Below, one piece after another: positions 7,760-52,262 of a stretch of 64,000 bases of DNA (within the stretch, counting starts at the first letter, position 1; each line of letters starts with the position of its first letter). The translations under genes and the position numbers were made by a program. The DNA comes from Escherichia coli. GTDB lineage: Bacteria > Pseudomonadota > Gammaproteobacteria > Enterobacterales > Enterobacteriaceae. Below the pieces are notes generated by a model. That model saw only the letters and a list, made by a program, of their open reading frames with translations, had not been told where the DNA came from and made no database searches. The stretch lies in assembly GCF_003019035.1 (NCBI RefSeq), contig NZ_CP027447.1; one strand, 5' to 3'.

Positions 7760-8122
7760 GGGGCTGATTCTGGATTCGACGGGATTTGCGAAACCCAAGG
7801 TGCATGCCGAGGGGCGGTTGGCCTCGTAAAAAGCCGCAAAAAATAGTCGCAAACGACGAAAACTACGCTTTAGCAGCTTAATAACCTGCTTAGAGCCCTC
7901 TCTCCCTAGCCTCCGCTCTTAGGACGGGGATCAAGAGAGGTCAAACCCAAAAGAGATCGCGTGGAAGCCCTGCCTGGGGTTGAAGCGTTAAAACTTAATC
8001 AGGCTAGTTTGTTAGTGGCGTGTCCGTCCGCAGCTGGCAAGCGAATGTAAAGACTGACTAAGCATGTAGTACCGAGGATGTAGGAATTTCGGACGCGGGT
8101 TCAACTCCCGCCAGCTCCACCA
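7760..8122 (+). ncRNA. ssrA: tmRNA (SsrA, 10Sa RNA)
   Basis: 363 nt from GGGGCTGATTCTGGATTCGACGGG to GGTTCAACTCCCGCCAGCTCCACCA; contains the tag-peptide ORF region (GCAAACGACGAAAACTACGCTTTAGCAGCTTAA) and a tRNA-like 3' end. Confidence 0.95.
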
Positions 8123-45769: not shown

Positions 45770-46972
45770 ATGGCAATTAAATTAGAAATTAAAAATCTTT
45801 ATAAAATATTTGGTGAGCATCCACAGCGAGCTTTCAAATATATCGAACAAGGACTTTCAAAAGAACAAATTCTGGAAAAAACTGGGCTATCGCTTGGCGT
45901 AAAAGACGCCAGTCTGGCCATTGAAGAAGGCGAGATATTTGTCATCATGGGATTATCCGGTTCGGGTAAATCCACAATGGTACGCCTTCTCAATCGCCTG
46001 ATTGAACCCACCCGCGGGCAAGTGCTGATTGATGGTGTGGATATTGCCAAAATATCCGACGCCGAACTCCGTGAGGTGCGCAGAAAAAAGATTGCGATGG
46101 TCTTCCAGTCCTTTGCCTTAATGCCGCATATGACCGTGCTGGACAATACTGCGTTCGGTATGGAACTGGCCGGAATTAATGCCGAAGAACGCCGGGAAAA
46201 AGCCCTTGATGCACTGCGTCAGGTCGGGCTGGAAAATTATGCCCACAGCTACCCGGATGAACTCTCTGGCGGGATGCGTCAACGTGTGGGATTAGCCCGC
46301 GCGTTAGCGATTAATCCGGATATATTATTAATGGACGAAGCCTTCTCGGCGCTCGATCCATTAATTCGCACTGAGATGCAGGATGAGCTGGTAAAATTAC
46401 AGGCGAAACATCAGCGCACCATTGTCTTTATTTCCCACGATCTCGATGAAGCTATGCGTATTGGTGACCGAATTGCCATTATGCAAAATGGTGAAGTGGT
46501 GCAGGTTGGTACACCGGATGAAATTCTTAATAATCCGGCGAATGATTATGTCCGTACCTTCTTCCGTGGCGTCGATATTAGCCAGGTGTTCAGTGCGAAA
46601 GATATTGCCCGTCGTACACCGAACGGCTTAATTCGTAAAACCCCCGGCTTCGGCCCGCGTTCGGCACTGAAATTATTGCAGGATGAAGATCGCGAATATG
46701 GCTACGTCATCGAACGCGGTAATAAGTTTGTCGGCGCTGTGTCTATCGATTCGCTTAAAGCCGCGTTAACGCAGCAGCAAGGTCTTGATGCGGCGCTGAT
46801 TGATGCGCCGTTAGCGGTCGATGCACAAACGCCTCTTAGCGAGTTGCTCTCTCATGTCGGACAGGCACCCTGTGCGGTGCCCGTGGTCGACGAGGACCAA
46901 CAGTATGTCGGCATCATTTCGAAAGGAATGCTGCTGCGCGCTTTAGATCGTGAGGGGGTAAATAATGGCTGA
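45770..46972 (+). CDS. proV: glycine betaine/proline ABC transporter ATP-binding protein ProV
   Basis: 400 aa; Walker [13 protein letters not shown] signature LSGGMRQR, C-terminal CBS domains. Confidence 0.95.
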
Positions 46973-48029
46973 TCAAAATAATCCGTGGGATACCACGCCA
47001 GCGGCGGACAGTGCCGCACAATCCGCAGACGCCTGGGGTACACCGGCTGCTGCACCGACTGACGGCGGTGGTGCTGACTGGCTGACCAGTACGCCTGCGC
47101 CAAACGTCGAGCATTTTAATATTCTCGATCCGTTCCATAAAACTCTGATCCCGCTCGACAGTTGGGTCACTGAAGGGATCGACTGGGTCGTTACCCATTT
47201 TCGTCCCGTCTTTCAGGGCGTGCGCGTTCCGGTTGATTACATCCTCAACGGTTTCCAGCAATTGCTGCTGGGTATGCCCGCGCCGGTGGCGATTATCGTT
47301 TTCGCTCTCATCGCCTGGCAGATTTCCGGGGTCGGAATGGGCGTGGCGACGCTGGTTTCGCTGATTGCCATCGGCGCAATCGGTGCCTGGTCGCAGGCAA
47401 TGGTTACTCTGGCGCTGGTGTTAACCGCCCTGCTGTTCTGTATCGTCATCGGTTTACCGTTGGGGATCTGGCTGGCGAGAAGTCCGCGAGCAGCGAAAAT
47501 TATTCGTCCACTGCTTGATGCCATGCAGACCACGCCCGCGTTTGTTTATCTGGTGCCAATCGTCATGCTGTTTGGTATCGGTAACGTGCCGGGCGTGGTG
47601 GTGACGATCATCTTTGCGCTGCCGCCGATTATCCGTCTGACGATTCTGGGAATTAACCAGGTTCCGGCGGATCTGATTGAAGCCTCGCGCTCATTCGGTG
47701 CCAGCCCGCGCCAGATGCTGTTCAAAGTTCAGTTACCGCTGGCGATGCCAACCATTATGGCGGGCGTTAACCAGACGCTGATGCTGGCCCTTTCTATGGT
47801 GGTCATCGCCTCGATGATTGCCGTCGGCGGGCTGGGTCAGATGGTACTTCGCGGTATCGGTCGTCTGGATATGGGGCTTGCCACCGTTGGCGGCGTCGGG
47901 ATTGTGATCCTCGCCATTATCCTCGATCGCCTGACGCAGGCCGTTGGGCGCGACTCACGCAGTCGCGGCAACCGTCGCTGGTACACCACTGGCCCTGTCG
48001 GTCTTCTGACCCGCCCATTCATTAAGTAA
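46965..48029 (+). CDS. proW: glycine betaine/proline ABC transporter permease ProW
   Basis: 354 aa; multi-TM permease; overlaps proV stop. Confidence 0.95.
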
Positions 48030-48086: not shown

Positions 48087-49079
48087 ATGCGACATAGCGT
48101 ACTTTTTGCGACAGCGTTTGCCACGCTTATCTCTACACAAACTTTTGCTGCCGACCTGCCGGGCAAAGGCATTACTGTTAATCCGGTTCAGAGCACCATC
48201 ACCGAAGAAACTTTCCAGACGCTGCTGGTCAGCCGCGCGCTGGAGAAATTAGGTTATACCGTCAATAAACCCAGCGAAGTGGATTACAACGTTGGGTACA
48301 CCTCGCTTGCTTCCGGCGATGCAACCTTCACCGCCGTGAACTGGACGCCGCTGCATGACAACATGTACGAAGCTGCCGGTGGCGATAAGAAATTTTATCG
48401 TGAAGGAGTATTTGTTAACGGCGCGGCACAGGGTTACCTGATCGATAAGAAAACCGCCGACCAGTATAAAATTACCAACATCGCGCAACTTAAAGATCCG
48501 AAGATCGCCAAACTGTTCGATACCAACGGCGACGGTAAAGCGGATTTAACCGGCTGTAACCCAGGCTGGGGCTGCGAAGGTGCGATCAACCACCAGCTTG
48601 CCGCGTATGGACTGACCAATACCGTGACGCATAATCAGGGGAACTACGCAGCGATGATGGCTGACACCATCAGTCGTTACAAAGAGGGTAAGCCGGTGTT
48701 TTACTACACCTGGACGCCGTACTGGGTGAGTAACGAACTGAAACCGGGGAAAGATGTGGTCTGGTTGCAGGTGCCGTTCTCCGCACTGCCGGGCGATAAA
48801 AATGCCGATACCAAACTGCCGAATGGCGCGAATTACGGCTTCCCGGTCAGTACCATGCATATCGTTGCCAACAAAGCCTGGGCCGAGAAAAATCCGGCGG
48901 CAGCGAAACTGTTTGCCATTATGCAGTTGCCAGTGGCAGATATTAACGCCCAGAACGCCATTATGCATGACGGCAAAGCCTCAGAAGGCGATATTCAGGG
49001 CCACGTTGATGGCTGGATCAAAGCCCACCAGCAGCAGTTCGATGGCTGGGTGAATGAAGCGCTGGCAGCGCAGAAGTAA
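48087..49079 (+). CDS. proX: glycine betaine-binding periplasmic protein ProX
   Basis: Translation from [21 protein letters not shown] (signal peptide), 330 aa; ATG at 48087. Confidence 0.95.
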
Positions 49080-49084
49080 TTTTT

Positions 49085-49170
49085 ATTCGGGCGGATAAGG
49101 CGTTTTTGCCTCATCCGCCGCTCTGTACACAATGCCTGATGCGACGCTGGCGCGTCTTATCATACCTACA
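49085..49170. repeat. REP/BIME elements downstream of proX
   Basis: GCGGATAAGGCGTTTTTGCCTCATCCGCC and GCCTGATGCGACGCTGGCGCGTCTTATCATACCTAC REP units. Confidence 0.7.
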
Positions 49171-49270
49171 AACCACACCGCACATTTCAACAATCTATCT
49201 TTCATCCCATATTCATCAACATCCGCTATTATTGATTTCCAGCTTAATCATCACCTGATGAACAAAAATA

Positions 49271-50455
49271 ATGACTAAACCTAATCATGAGCTTAGCCCG
49301 GCGCTGATCGTGCTGATGTCTATCGCCACCGGTCTGGCGGTAGCCAGTAACTATTACGCCCAGCCATTGCTCGACACCATCGCGCGTAACTTTTCCCTTT
49401 CCGCCAGTTCGGCAGGCTTTATTGTTACCACCGCGCAGTTGGGCTATGCCGCAGGTCTGCTGTTTCTTGTTCCCCTCGGTGATATGTTTGAACGCCGCCG
49501 CCTGATTGTCTCGATGACCTTACTGGCGGCAGGCGGCATGTTAATCACTGCCAGCAGTCAGTCGCTGGCGATGATGATCCTCGGTACGGCATTAACCGGT
49601 TTATTCTCAGTCGTGGCACAAATTCTGGTTCCGCTGGCAGCGACGCTGGCTTCACCGGACAAACGCGGCAAAGTGGTCGGCACCATTATGAGCGGGCTGC
49701 TGTTGGGGATCTTGCTGGCACGGACCGTTGCCGGATTGCTGGCGAGTCTCGGTGGCTGGCGAACTGTCTTTTGGGTCGCTTCGGTATTAATGGCACTGAT
49801 GGCGCTGGCGTTATGGCGTGGTCTGCCACAAATGAAATCAGAAACCCACCTCAACTACCCACAGTTGCTAGGTTCTGTTTTCAGCATGTTTATCAGCGAT
49901 AAAATCCTGCGCACCCGCGCGTTGCTGGGCTGCCTGACCTTTGCCAACTTCAGCATTCTCTGGACCTCGATGGCCTTTTTGCTTGCCGCTCCACCTTTTA
50001 ACTACAGCGATGGCGTAATTGGTCTGTTCGGACTTGCAGGAGCTGCAGGGGCGTTAGGCGCTCGTCCGGCGGGCGGTTTTGCCGATAAGGGCAAATCACA
50101 CCTCACCACAACTTTCGGCCTGCTGCTGCTGTTACTTTCATGGCTGGCTATCTGGTTTGGACACACTTCTGTACTGGCGCTGGTTATCGGCATCCTGGTG
50201 CTGGATCTCACCGTGCAGGGCGTGCATATCACTAACCAGACGGTAATTTATCGAATTTACCCCGATGCGCGTAATCGCCTGACTGCAGGTTACATGACCA
50301 GCTACTTTATTGGCGGTGCTGCCGGTTCGCTAATTTCAGCCTCAGCCTGGCAACATGGCGGTTGGGCAGGCGTTTGTCTGGCTGGCGCGACGATTGCCCT
50401 GGTTAACTTACTGGTCTGGTGGCGAGGTTTTCATCGTCAGGAAGCCGCAATTTAA
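49271..50455 (+). CDS. ygaY: MFS transporter YgaY (intact here)
   Basis: 394-aa uninterrupted ORF with 12-TM MFS profile; position between proX and ygaZ. Confidence 0.85.
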   Translation: MTKPNHELSPALIVLMSIATGLAVASNYYAQPLLDTIARNFSLSASSAGFIVTTAQLGYAAGLLFLVPLGDMFERRRLIVSMTLLAAGGMLITASSQSLAMMILGTALTGLFSVVAQILVPLAATLASPDKRGKVVGTIMSGLLLGILLARTVAGLLASLGGWRTVFWVASVLMALMALALWRGLPQMKSETHLNYPQLLGSVFSMFISDKILRTRALLGCLTFANFSILWTSMAFLLAAPPFNYSDGVIGLFGLAGAAGALGARPAGGFADKGKSHLTTTFGLLLLLLSWLAIWFGHTSVLALVIGILVLDLTVQGVHITNQTVIYRIYPDARNRLTAGYMTSYFIGGAAGSLISASAWQHGGWAGVCLAGATIALVNLLVWWRGFHRQEAAI

Positions 50456-50578
50456 GCAATCAGCAACCGTTTTCGTGGCTTTACACTTATAAGGGTGTTA
50501 AGAAGCCCATCAGTCTGATAAGGTTAAGATATTCATTCAGTCTATTTATAATATTAACAATCGTTAAGCGTACACTCT

Positions 50579-51316
50579 ATGGAAAGCCCTACTCCACAGC
50601 CTGCTCCTGGTTCGGCGACCTTCATGGAAGGATGCAAAGACAGTTTACCGATTGTTATTAGTTATATTCCGGTGGCCTTTGCGTTCGGTCTGAATGCGAC
50701 CCGTCTGGGATTCTCTCCTCTCGAAAGCGTTTTTTTCTCCTGCATCATTTATGCAGGCGCGAGCCAGTTCGTCATTACCGCGATGCTGGCAGCCGGGAGT
50801 AGTTTGTGGGTTGCTGCACTGACCGTCATGGCAATGGATGTTCGCCATGTTTTGTATGGCCCGTCACTGCGTAGCCGTATTATTCAGCGTCTGCAAAAAT
50901 CGAAAACCGCCCTGTGGGCATTTGGCCTGACGGATGAGGTTTTTGCCGCCGCAACCGCAAAACTGGTACGCAATAATCGCCGCTGGAGCGAGAACTGGAT
51001 GATCGGCATTGCCTTCAGTTCATGGTCATCGTGGGTATTTGGTACGGTAATAGGGGCATTCTCCGGCAGCGGCTTGCTGCAAGGTTATCCCGCCGTTGAA
51101 GCAGCATTAGGTTTTATGCTTCCGGCACTCTTTATGAGTTTCCTGCTCGCCTCTTTCCAGCGCAAACAATCTCTTTGCGTTACCGCAGCGTTAGTTGGTG
51201 CCCTTGCAGGCGTAACGCTATTTTCTATTCCCGTCGCCATTCTGGCAGGCATTGTCTGTGGCTGCCTCACTGCGTTAATCCAGGCATTCTGGCAAGGAGC
51301 GCCCGATGAGCTATGA
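50579..51316 (+). CDS. ygaZ: L-valine exporter subunit YgaZ (AzlC family)
   Basis: 245 aa; AzlC-type membrane protein. Confidence 0.9.
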
Positions 51317-51641
51317 GGTTTTGCTGCTTGGGTTACTGGTTGGCGCGGCGAATTATTGCTTCCGCTATTTGCCGCTGCGCCTGCGTGTGGGTAATGCCCG
51401 CCCAACCAAACGTGGCGCGATAGGCATATTGCTCGACACCATTGGCATCGCCTCGATATGCGCTCTGCTGGTTGTCTCTACCGCACCAGAAGTGATGCAC
51501 GATACACGCCGTTTCGTGCCCACGCTGGTCGGCTTCGCGGTACTGGGTGCCAGTTTCTATAAAACACGCAGCATTATCATCCCAACACTGCTTAGTGCGC
51601 TGGCCTATGGGCTCGCCTGGAAAGTGATGGCGATTATATAA
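51306..51641 (+). CDS. ygaH: L-valine exporter subunit YgaH (AzlD family)
   Basis: 111 aa; overlaps ygaZ stop. Confidence 0.9.
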
Positions 51642-51731: not shown

Positions 51732-52262
51732 ATGGATAGTTCGTTTACGCCCATTGAACAAATGCTAAAATTTCGCGCCAGCCGCCACGAAGATTTTCCT
51801 TATCAGGAGATCCTTCTGACTCGTCTTTGCATGCACATGCAAAGCAAGCTGCTGGAGAACCGCAATAAAATGCTGAAGGCTCAGGGGATTAACGAGACGT
51901 TGTTTATGGCGTTGATTACGCTGGAGTCTCAGGAAAACCACAGTATTCAGCCTTCTGAATTGAGTTGTGCTCTTGGATCATCCCGTACCAACGCGACGCG
52001 TATTGCCGATGAACTGGAAAAACGCGGTTGGATCGAACGTCGTGAAAGCGATAACGATCGCCGCTGCCTGCATCTGCAATTAACGGAAAAAGGTCACGAG
52101 TTTTTGCGCGAGGTTTTACCACCGCAGCATAACTGCCTGCATCAACTCTGGTCCGCGCTCAGCACAACAGAAAAAGATCAGCTCGAGCAAATCACCCGCA
52201 AATTGCTCTCCCGTCTCGACCAGATGGAACAAGACGGTGTGGTTCTCGAAGCGATGAGCTAA
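51732..52262 (+). CDS. mprA: MarR-family repressor MprA (EmrR)
   Basis: 176 aa; [25 protein letters not shown]... matches EmrR. Confidence 0.95.

What the first reader, a model, noticed from the sequence alone, without database searches (positions are those of the whole stretch)
49271..50455. ygaY present as an intact MFS transporter gene
The 394-aa frame is uninterrupted here, whereas I recall ygaY being an interrupted pseudogene in K-12. This is a strain difference worth noting when interpreting transport phenotypes.
Basis: partly seen in the sequence, partly recalled or inferred. Interest (0 to 1): 0.2.

Follow-up and report, generated by a model that had tools for sequence, protein, structure and literature searches.

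The report
Intact ygaY transporter gene, normal allele
This strain carries the ordinary, working-looking version of the membrane-transporter gene ygaY; laboratory E. coli K-12 is the exception, having lost 7 bases and broken the gene, a difference already recorded in public annotation.

Summary
Window 49271-50455 (+) is an uninterrupted 394-codon ORF between proX and ygaZ. It encodes a 12-helix major-facilitator (MFS) transporter (Pfam MFS_1, 140 bits).

In K-12 MG1655 the orthologue ygaY (b2681) is annotated as a pseudogene. The alignment shows a single lesion. K-12 has one copy of a 7-bp unit, GGCGGCA, where the window has a perfect tandem pair (49525-49538). This shifts the frame in helix 3 and stops translation after 88 codons.

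Among 5,426 complete E. coli genomes:
- 353 carry the deletion allele, and every sampled one looks like a K-12 laboratory derivative.
- About 5,060 keep both units.
- 1,655 have the same perfect repeat as the window.
- None has three copies.

BL21(DE3), O157:H7 Sakai and five other natural isolates are annotated as intact. Orthologues in E. fergusonii, E. albertii, E. marmotae and Citrobacter read through the site, so the intact state is ancestral. dN/dS of 0.00-0.07 indicates a gene under purifying selection.

The substrate is unknown. TCDB places YgaY in the YnfM family (2.A.1.36). I infer a proton-coupled exporter of a small metabolite.

Novelty: already known. Interest is low.

The parts
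49271..50455 (+). ygaY coding sequence, intact: 394 aa plus a TAA stop. It encodes a 12-TM MFS transporter of the YnfM family (TC 2.A.1.36).
   Evidence: ORF. Pfam MFS_1 at 140 bits. Twelve hydropathy peaks in a 6+6 arrangement. 95.5% nucleotide identity to K-12 b2681 in the same synteny. TCDB assignment quoted in PMC5417439.
49525..49538 (+). Perfect tandem duplication GGCGGCA GGCGGCA (ORF nt 255-268, codons L85 to M90, inside TM3). K-12 keeps only one unit, and that is its inactivating lesion.
   Evidence: Alignment and sequence. The perfect two-copy form is in 1,655 genomes, one copy in 353, three copies in none.
49478..49501 (+). Residues 70-77, GDMFERRR, in the cytoplasmic TM2-TM3 loop. 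This is a loose match to MFS motif A.
   Evidence: Regex and hydropathy. D71 and R75 are invariant across orthologues and in YnfM. The motif consensus is taken from general knowledge of MFS proteins.
49089..49166 (+). REP/BIME-type palindromic element (Rfam naRNA4-like) in the proX-ygaY spacer. It is context only and not part of the gene.
   Evidence: Rfam RF02564 at 61.6 bits against a gathering score of 59.5. Inverted repeat 49090-49101 / 49108-49119. Many genomic copies.
50579..51641 (+). ygaZ (50579-51316) and ygaH (51306-51641), the downstream L-valine exporter genes. ygaZ starts 123 bp after the ygaY stop, and a promoter-like site lies at 50524-50552.
   Evidence: ORFs, annotation of the identical locus, promoter scan (a consensus match only).

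Best explanation
Window 49271-50455 is the ancestral, intact allele of ygaY. It encodes a 394-aa inner-membrane secondary transporter of the major facilitator superfamily, with 12 helices in a 6+6 arrangement, in the YnfM family (TC 2.A.1.36).

The difference from K-12 comes from a single event in the K-12 lineage. One unit of a perfect 7-bp tandem duplication (GGCGGCA GGCGGCA, codons 85-90, helix 3) was lost. The repeat structure makes replication slippage the most likely cause; this is inferred. The loss shifts the frame and ends translation after 88 residues, so K-12 lacks the transporter while nearly all other E. coli keep it.

Shown: the intact frame, the exact lesion, its restriction to 353 of 5,426 genomes, the ancestral polarity, and strong purifying selection.

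Inferred: the protein works by the usual MFS alternating-access cycle driven by the proton gradient. It most likely exports a small organic metabolite, possibly a dicarboxylate by analogy with YnfM. The substrate is unknown.
For: The ORF is intact and matches Pfam MFS_1 at 140 bits. Twelve hydropathy peaks are present.

K-12 is annotated as a pseudogene or frameshifted. The only indel is a 7-bp gap at ORF nt 255-261. The K-12 reading frame stops at codon 89, and the downstream frame stays open to the normal stop.

The K-12 100-mer across the junction matches at >=99% in 353 genomes. There are no hits in the 95-99% band, and all others align with 7 extra bases. A junction-specific 30-mer hits the same 353. 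In the 60 evenly sampled hits, every recognisable name is a K-12 derivative (MG1655, BW25113, C600, J53, MC4100, JM109, TG1, S17-1 and others), and the rest have K-12-like sizes and coordinates.

Across the whole gene, 55 of 60 sampled records keep exactly 1185 bp. Six of six natural strains fetched, plus BL21(DE3), are annotated as intact, and the six were also translated without stops.

E. fergusonii, E. marmotae, E. albertii and Citrobacter orthologues read LLAAGGML through the site.

dN/dS is 0.00-0.07 among 8 alleles. The repaired K-12 protein has no amino-acid difference from WP_000165699.1, the BL21 allele.

Family evidence: TCDB 2.A.1.36.3 (PMC5417439), and BLASTP against K-12 YnfM gives 26% identity over the full length, E = 2e-20. 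YnfM is reported as a CCCP-sensitive glutarate exporter in BL21 (PMC12622518).
Against: Nothing contradicts the allele-level statement. The functional part is weak.
- No substrate or phenotype for YgaY turned up in the literature searches.
- Identity to YnfM is only 26%, and a Salmonella YnfM orthologue is claimed to import copper (PMC13101709), so direction and substrate cannot be transferred safely.
- TM5 lacks the canonical GP..GG antiporter motif of DHA1 pumps, read from the sequence.
- No consensus sigma-70 promoter or clear Shine-Dalgarno sequence was found upstream of the ATG, and expression of the intact allele was not examined.
- The K-12-only claim rests on an even sample of 60 of the 353 genomes, not on all of them.
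Confidence: 0.9

Rival explanations
1. The frame is open but the gene is cryptic or dispensable in natural E. coli as well: silent or non-functional, with K-12 merely the first lineage to show visible decay.
For: No consensus promoter or strong ribosome-binding site lies upstream. H-NS/StpA binding is reported at ygaY in K-12 (PMC10656529). One natural isolate (PCP06021) has deleted most of ygaY together with ygaZ. No phenotype is known.
Against: dN/dS is 0.00-0.07 while dS is 0.09-0.22. That pattern is not expected for a gene free of selection. The 394-aa length is conserved across Escherichia species and Citrobacter at 92-97% identity. 55 of 60 sampled genomes keep the exact length.
Confidence: 0.07
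2. The difference is a sequencing or assembly artefact: either the window gained 7 spurious bases or the K-12 reference lost 7.
For: Short G+C-rich tandem repeats are places where sequencing errors can occur. This is a general consideration only; no tool result points to it here.
Against: The single-copy form is reproduced in 353 independently assembled K-12-type genomes. The two-unit length is found in about 5,060 others, including 1,655 with the identical perfect repeat. Indel errors in short repeats usually involve 1-2 bases, not 7.
Confidence: 0.01
3. YgaY is an importer or nutrient symporter (or, like the claimed CuiT, a metal importer) rather than an exporter.
For: The best N-terminal NCBIfam matches are to aromatic acid:H+ symporters. 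The best PDB sequence match is the glucose/H+ symporter GlcP, N-domain only. A Salmonella YnfM orthologue is reported as a copper importer. TM5 lacks the canonical antiporter motif.
Against: The full-length matches are to efflux proteins: SotB/YdeA-type sugar efflux (NF002921, residues 11-390; PDB 6kki, residues 13-383), Bcr/CflA and Cmx. E. coli YnfM behaves as an exporter. The gene sits in an export-rich neighbourhood (ygaZH, emrRAB). All of this is circumstantial.
Confidence: 0.25

Closest known systems
E. coli K-12 MG1655 ygaY (b2681), annotated pseudogene
   Same: Same locus between proX and ygaZ, with 95.5% nucleotide identity. Only 6 amino-acid differences remain once the frame is restored.
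   Different: K-12 lacks one GGCGGCA unit (7 bp). This causes a frameshift in TM3 and a stop after 88 codons. The window has both units and a complete 394-aa frame.
Intact ygaY of other E. coli: O157:H7 Sakai ECs_3543 'ygaY: transporter', and BL21(DE3) ECD_RS13210 / WP_000165699.1
   Same: 394 aa, same synteny, annotated as intact, 98% protein identity.
   Different: The window allele (WP_096987068.1) is a minority haplotype: only 72 of 5,418 records are >=99% identical. It has a few private residues, such as T54, S159, V304, G363 and I394.
E. coli YnfM (b1596), the name-giving member of TC 2.A.1.36, reported as a glutarate exporter
   Same: Full-length homology (26% identity, E = 2e-20). The two share the 12-TM layout, the motif A position, and a conserved arginine in TM5 (R151). 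TCDB places both in the same family.
   Different: They are distant paralogues. YnfM has a 19-residue N-terminal extension and different loop lengths. No shared substrate has been shown.
E. coli SotB/YdeA sugar efflux transporter (PDB 6kki), the closest solved structure by sequence
   Same: It aligns over residues 13-383 of YgaY. NCBIfam NF002921 aligns over residues 11-390.
   Different: The match is very weak (E = 1.4e-5; 61 bits against a cut-off of 401), so YgaY is not a member of that equivalog.

Membership tests
Major facilitator superfamily (Pfam PF07690 MFS_1) | Profile match above the curated gathering score | tested here: met
   140.2 bits against a cut-off of 33.4, E = 1e-40.
Major facilitator superfamily | Twelve transmembrane helices as two six-helix halves joined by a central cytoplasmic loop | tested here: met
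   Twelve Kyte-Doolittle peaks: 8-26, 49-67, 78-96, 102-120, 139-157, 166-184 | 221-239, 249-267, 278-296, 300-318, 337-355, 364-382. The central loop is 185-220. This is a hydropathy estimate only; no structure was modelled.
Major facilitator superfamily | Motif A (G-x-L-a-D-r-x-G-r-k/r) in the TM2-TM3 loop | tested here: met
   G70-D-M-F-E-R-R-R77 lies in the expected loop. D71 and R75 are invariant, including in YnfM. The match is loose, and the consensus is from general knowledge.
ygaY orthologue group (E. coli locus b2681) | Position between proX and ygaZ, and high identity to b2681 | tested here: met
   Synteny shown. 1125 of 1178 aligned bases are identical.
K-12-type ygaY pseudogene | Single copy of the GGCGGCA unit (7-bp deletion) causing a frameshift | tested here: not met
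   The window has both units at 49525-49538 and an open frame. The window is therefore not the pseudogene allele.
YnfM (acriflavin-sensitivity) family, TC 2.A.1.36 | Sequence homology to YnfM over the whole length, and TCDB listing of YgaY | tested here: met
   BLASTP gives E = 2e-20 and 26% identity over residues 1-390. P76628 is listed as 2.A.1.36.3 in PMC5417439.
YnfM family, TC 2.A.1.36 | Shared transport function (dicarboxylate or drug-related efflux) | not testable with these tools
   This needs transport assays. Only YnfM itself has data, and conflicting claims exist.
DHA1 drug:H+ antiporters (for example Bcr/CflA, MdfA) | Antiporter motif C (G-x8-G-x3-G-P-x2-G-G) in TM5, and a score above family cut-offs | tested here: not met
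   TM5 reads GTIMSGLLLGILLARTVAG, with no GP..GG (consensus from general knowledge). Bcr/CflA models score 48-50 bits against cut-offs of 201-303.

The most novel reading that the evidence does not exclude
Because K-12 is the one lineage lacking YgaY, a real physiological transport activity of natural E. coli may have gone uncharacterised. One candidate is export of a small organic acid or other metabolite, perhaps working alongside the adjacent ygaZH and emrAB exporters. Strains with the intact allele, such as this one and BL21, would then differ from K-12 in a measurable efflux or tolerance phenotype.
Probability: 0.35. Interest if true: 0.3.

Novelty: already known. Interest (0 to 1): 0.07.

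Why it matters
This is mainly a bookkeeping point. K-12 is a ygaY null, so transport, efflux or tolerance phenotypes measured in K-12, and K-12-based models and knockout collections, say nothing about YgaY. K-12 workers also use the locus as a neutral control or integration site, which would not be neutral in this strain, in BL21, or in most isolates. What this analysis adds is a precise lesion, a 7-bp repeat-unit loss that is trivially repairable. It also shows that the repaired K-12 protein would be identical to the BL21 allele, and that the gene is under purifying selection in nature. Together these make YgaY a reasonable orphan transporter to de-orphanise. None of this is surprising to a specialist.

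Tried and rejected
- One search failed because of a file-path error and was repeated.
- The haplotype-agnostic single-copy probe was flawed. Its first 28 nt also match an intact haplotype, GGCGGCATGCGGCA (Gly88Cys). Its 1,142 hits are therefore 353 K-12-type plus about 789 intact alleles. The restriction of the deletion rests instead.
- I considered that the 7-bp repeat might be a phase-variable contingency switch. I rejected this: among 1,655 genomes with the perfect repeat there are no three-copy alleles and no single-copy allele outside the K-12 haplotype.
- The promoter and terminator scan found nothing convincing upstream of ygaY.
- The large protein search was saturated by sequences >=92% identical. 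It gave orthologue distribution but no informative names ('MFS transporter' only).
- PDB sequence matches are too remote to assign a substrate.
- Literature searches for ygaY returned K-12 pseudogene or integration-site uses and the proVWX chromatin study, but no function.
- My first coordinate guess for BL21 missed the locus and was corrected.
- I did not run a structure prediction. The Pfam and topology evidence already answers fold membership, and a model would not reveal the substrate.

Full report
**Observation**

The ORF listing reports an ORF at 49271..50455 on the + strand: 394 aa, ATG start, TAA stop. I read the raw sequence directly. The neighbours are proW (46965-48029), proX (48087-49079), ygaZ (50579-51316), ygaH (51306-51641), mprA/emrR (51732-52262) and emrA. 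This is the same order as in K-12. The protein matches Pfam MFS_1 at E = 1e-40, 140.2 bits against a cut-off of 33.4. No NCBIfam model is reached at its cut-off. The full-length weak matches are to efflux-type MFS proteins: SotB-type sugar efflux, Bcr/CflA and Cmx.

**Comparison with K-12**

The reference NC_000913.3 annotates ygaY (b2681) as a pseudogene of 1178 bp. PGAP on another MG1655 assembly labels it 'MFS transporter, frameshifted'. A global alignment of the 1185-bp window gene with the 1178-bp K-12 gene gives 53 substitutions and one 7-bp gap at ORF nt 255-261.

The window reads CTT ACT GGCGGCA GGCGGCA TG, with the tandem units at window 49525-49538. K-12 reads CTT ACT GGCGGCA TG. K-12 therefore retains one unit of a perfect 7-bp tandem duplication. 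Its frame then runs ...LLAAC* and stops after 88 residues, while the shifted frame stays open to the normal stop.

The lesion lies in the third hydrophobic segment (residues 78-96), just after the motif-A-like loop GDMFERRR. The truncated product would therefore have at most two complete helices of twelve. Loss of one unit of a perfect tandem repeat is the classic outcome of replication slippage; that mechanism is inferred, not shown.

**Polarity**

Full-length 394-aa orthologues (393 aa in E. albertii) exist in Shigella, E. fergusonii, E. marmotae, E. albertii and Citrobacter at 92-97% identity. The outgroup sequences I aligned (E. fergusonii, E. marmotae, E. albertii, Citrobacter) all read LLAAGGML through the site. 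The two-unit state is ancestral, so K-12 has a deletion.

**Census in 5,426 complete E. coli genomes**

- A 100-base K-12 query centred on the junction matches at >=99% in 353 genomes. No genome falls in the 95-99% band. The other 5,064 fall at <=93.5%, and 55 of the 56 sampled non-K-12 records span 107 bases, carrying the extra 7 bases; the other gave only an 88-base partial match.
- A 30-mer in which every 28-base seed spans the K-12 junction hits the same 353 genomes. In the 60 evenly spaced rows, every recognisable name is a K-12 laboratory derivative (MG1655, BW25113, BW2952, C600, J53, MC4100, JM109, TG1, S17-1, RV308, RP437, EPI300, NEB Turbo, ET12567, O16:H48 mouse-gut isolates). The remainder have K-12-like chromosome sizes (4.50-4.77 Mb) and coordinates.
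- The perfect two-copy repeat, as in the window, is present in 1,655 genomes.
- A three-copy probe finds nothing.
- A fourth probe was badly designed. Its first 28 nt also match an intact GGCGGCATGCGGCA haplotype, which explains its 1,142 hits.
- With the whole gene as query, 55 of 60 evenly sampled records keep exactly 1185 bp, 4 are K-12 derivatives at 1178 bp, and one (PCP06021) has a larger deletion.
- O157:H7 Sakai (where the gene is named ygaY, 'transporter'), five other natural isolates and BL21(DE3) are annotated as intact. The first six were also translated here without internal stops.

The window allele is thus the norm, and the K-12 allele is a one-off event in one lineage. It is not a recurrent hotspot or a phase-variable switch.

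**Selection**

Nei-Gojobori estimates among eight alleles (with K-12 repaired in silico) give dS of 0.04-0.22 and dN/dS of 0.00-0.07 for every pair with synonymous differences; one pair (O111 110512 vs 210205630) had none. This is comparable to proW, proX and emrA. The repaired K-12 protein has no amino-acid difference from WP_000165699.1, the allele of BL21(DE3), Z1002 and an O9:H10 strain. K-12 has therefore accumulated no further damage, which points to a recent inactivation. In nature the gene behaves as a functional coding sequence.

**What the protein is**

Hydropathy gives twelve peaks in a 6+6 arrangement with a central loop at 185-220. TCDB, as quoted in PMC5417439, lists E. coli YgaY (P76628) as 2.A.1.36.3 in the YnfM ('acriflavin-sensitivity') family, with function unknown. 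I tested the relationship directly. BLASTP against K-12 YnfM gives 26% identity over essentially the full length, E = 2e-20, with a conserved TM5 arginine (R151) and conserved motif-A residues.

YnfM has been reported as the glutarate exporter of BL21(DE3), sensitive to CCCP (PMC12622518). A Salmonella YnfM orthologue has been claimed to import copper (PMC13101709). The closest solved structure by sequence over the full length is the sugar efflux protein SotB (6kki, E = 1.4e-5). TM5 lacks the canonical GP..GG antiporter motif.

My best inference is a proton-coupled MFS exporter of a small organic metabolite. I hold this at modest confidence. The importer alternative cannot be excluded.

**Literature**

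K-12 papers treat ygaY as a pseudogene. Its deletion is used as a neutral control (10.1101/072470). The proVWX chromatin study calls it cryptic, notes nine in-frame stops, and reports an H-NS bridge between the proU downstream regulatory element and ygaY (PMC10656529). Searches combining ygaY with 'transporter', 'coli' or 'Salmonella' found no functional study.

**Verdict**

K-12 is the exception and this strain is typical. The fact is already in public annotation, so the novelty is 'already known' and the interest is low. This analysis contributes the exact lesion, its population frequency, the ancestral polarity, and evidence of purifying selection. The practical point is that BL21 and essentially all natural isolates carry the gene that K-12 lacks.

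**Seen in passing**

- A REP/naRNA4-like element sits in the proX-ygaY spacer. The spacer is 100 bp longer in some strains, including BL21.
- Divergence from K-12 drops sharply from 4.5% within ygaY to zero immediately downstream, which suggests a recombination breakpoint.
- A natural isolate has a deletion spanning ygaY to ygaH.
- A six-codon upstream ORF overlaps the ygaY start codon.
- A tmRNA gene lies at 7760-8122, and the window's overall G+C is low at 47.8%, which points to unexamined islands elsewhere in the window.

Noticed in passing
window 49089-49166 (+), with hairpin arms 49090-49101 / 49108-49119: A REP/BIME-type palindromic element lies in the proX-ygaY spacer. It scores just above the gathering threshold for Rfam naRNA4 (RF02564, 61.6 against 59.5 bits). 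It accounts for the roughly 36,000 extra matches, and its hairpin may serve as the proVWX terminator. In some strains, including BL21(DE3), this spacer is 100 bp longer.
   Followed up: partly
window 49430-50451 compared with 50452-50809: Divergence from K-12 is 4.5% inside ygaY and 3.7% in proX (dS about 0.17-0.18). It drops to zero from the last 4 bases of ygaY through the spacer and stays at 0.2-0.5% in ygaZ and mprA. This looks like a recombination breakpoint at the 3' end of ygaY. Synonymous diversity of ygaY among E. coli haplotypes is high (dS up to 0.22).
   Followed up: partly
L010 (NZ_CM129877.1, E. coli PCP06021) 2501-2963: A seawater isolate has an independent, larger lesion. ygaY is cut after nt 158 and fused next to a shortened ygaH, and ygaZ is missing.
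   Followed up: partly
window 49258-49278 (+): A six-codon upstream ORF (ATG AAC AAA AAT AAT GAC TAA) overlaps the ygaY start codon in another frame. No obvious Shine-Dalgarno sequence precedes either ATG. There are no K-12 substitutions in this stretch, and there is no evidence of function.
   Followed up: no
window 7760-8122 (+), 24852-24924 (-), 57823-57894 (+), 60786-61374 (-): Rfam finds tmRNA (ssrA), a lone tRNA, MicA, and a cluster of five tRNAs. Whole-window G+C is only 47.8%, against 53-55% around ygaY. This suggests horizontally acquired islands between ssrA and the proU region. They were not examined.
   Followed up: no
window 49525-49538, and the same site in other genomes: The repeat site is polymorphic among intact alleles. 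The perfect GGCGGCAGGCGGCA form is in 1,655 genomes, GGCGGCATGCGGCA (Gly88Cys) in roughly 790, and imperfect forms such as GGCAGCGGGCGGTA in the rest. Only some haplotypes, including this window, carry the slippage-prone perfect repeat.
   Followed up: yes
protein P0001: An ENA metagenome protein of 596 aa gives the top bit score (1095) but only 73% identity. It may be a fusion or a mis-called gene containing a ygaY homologue.
   Followed up: no
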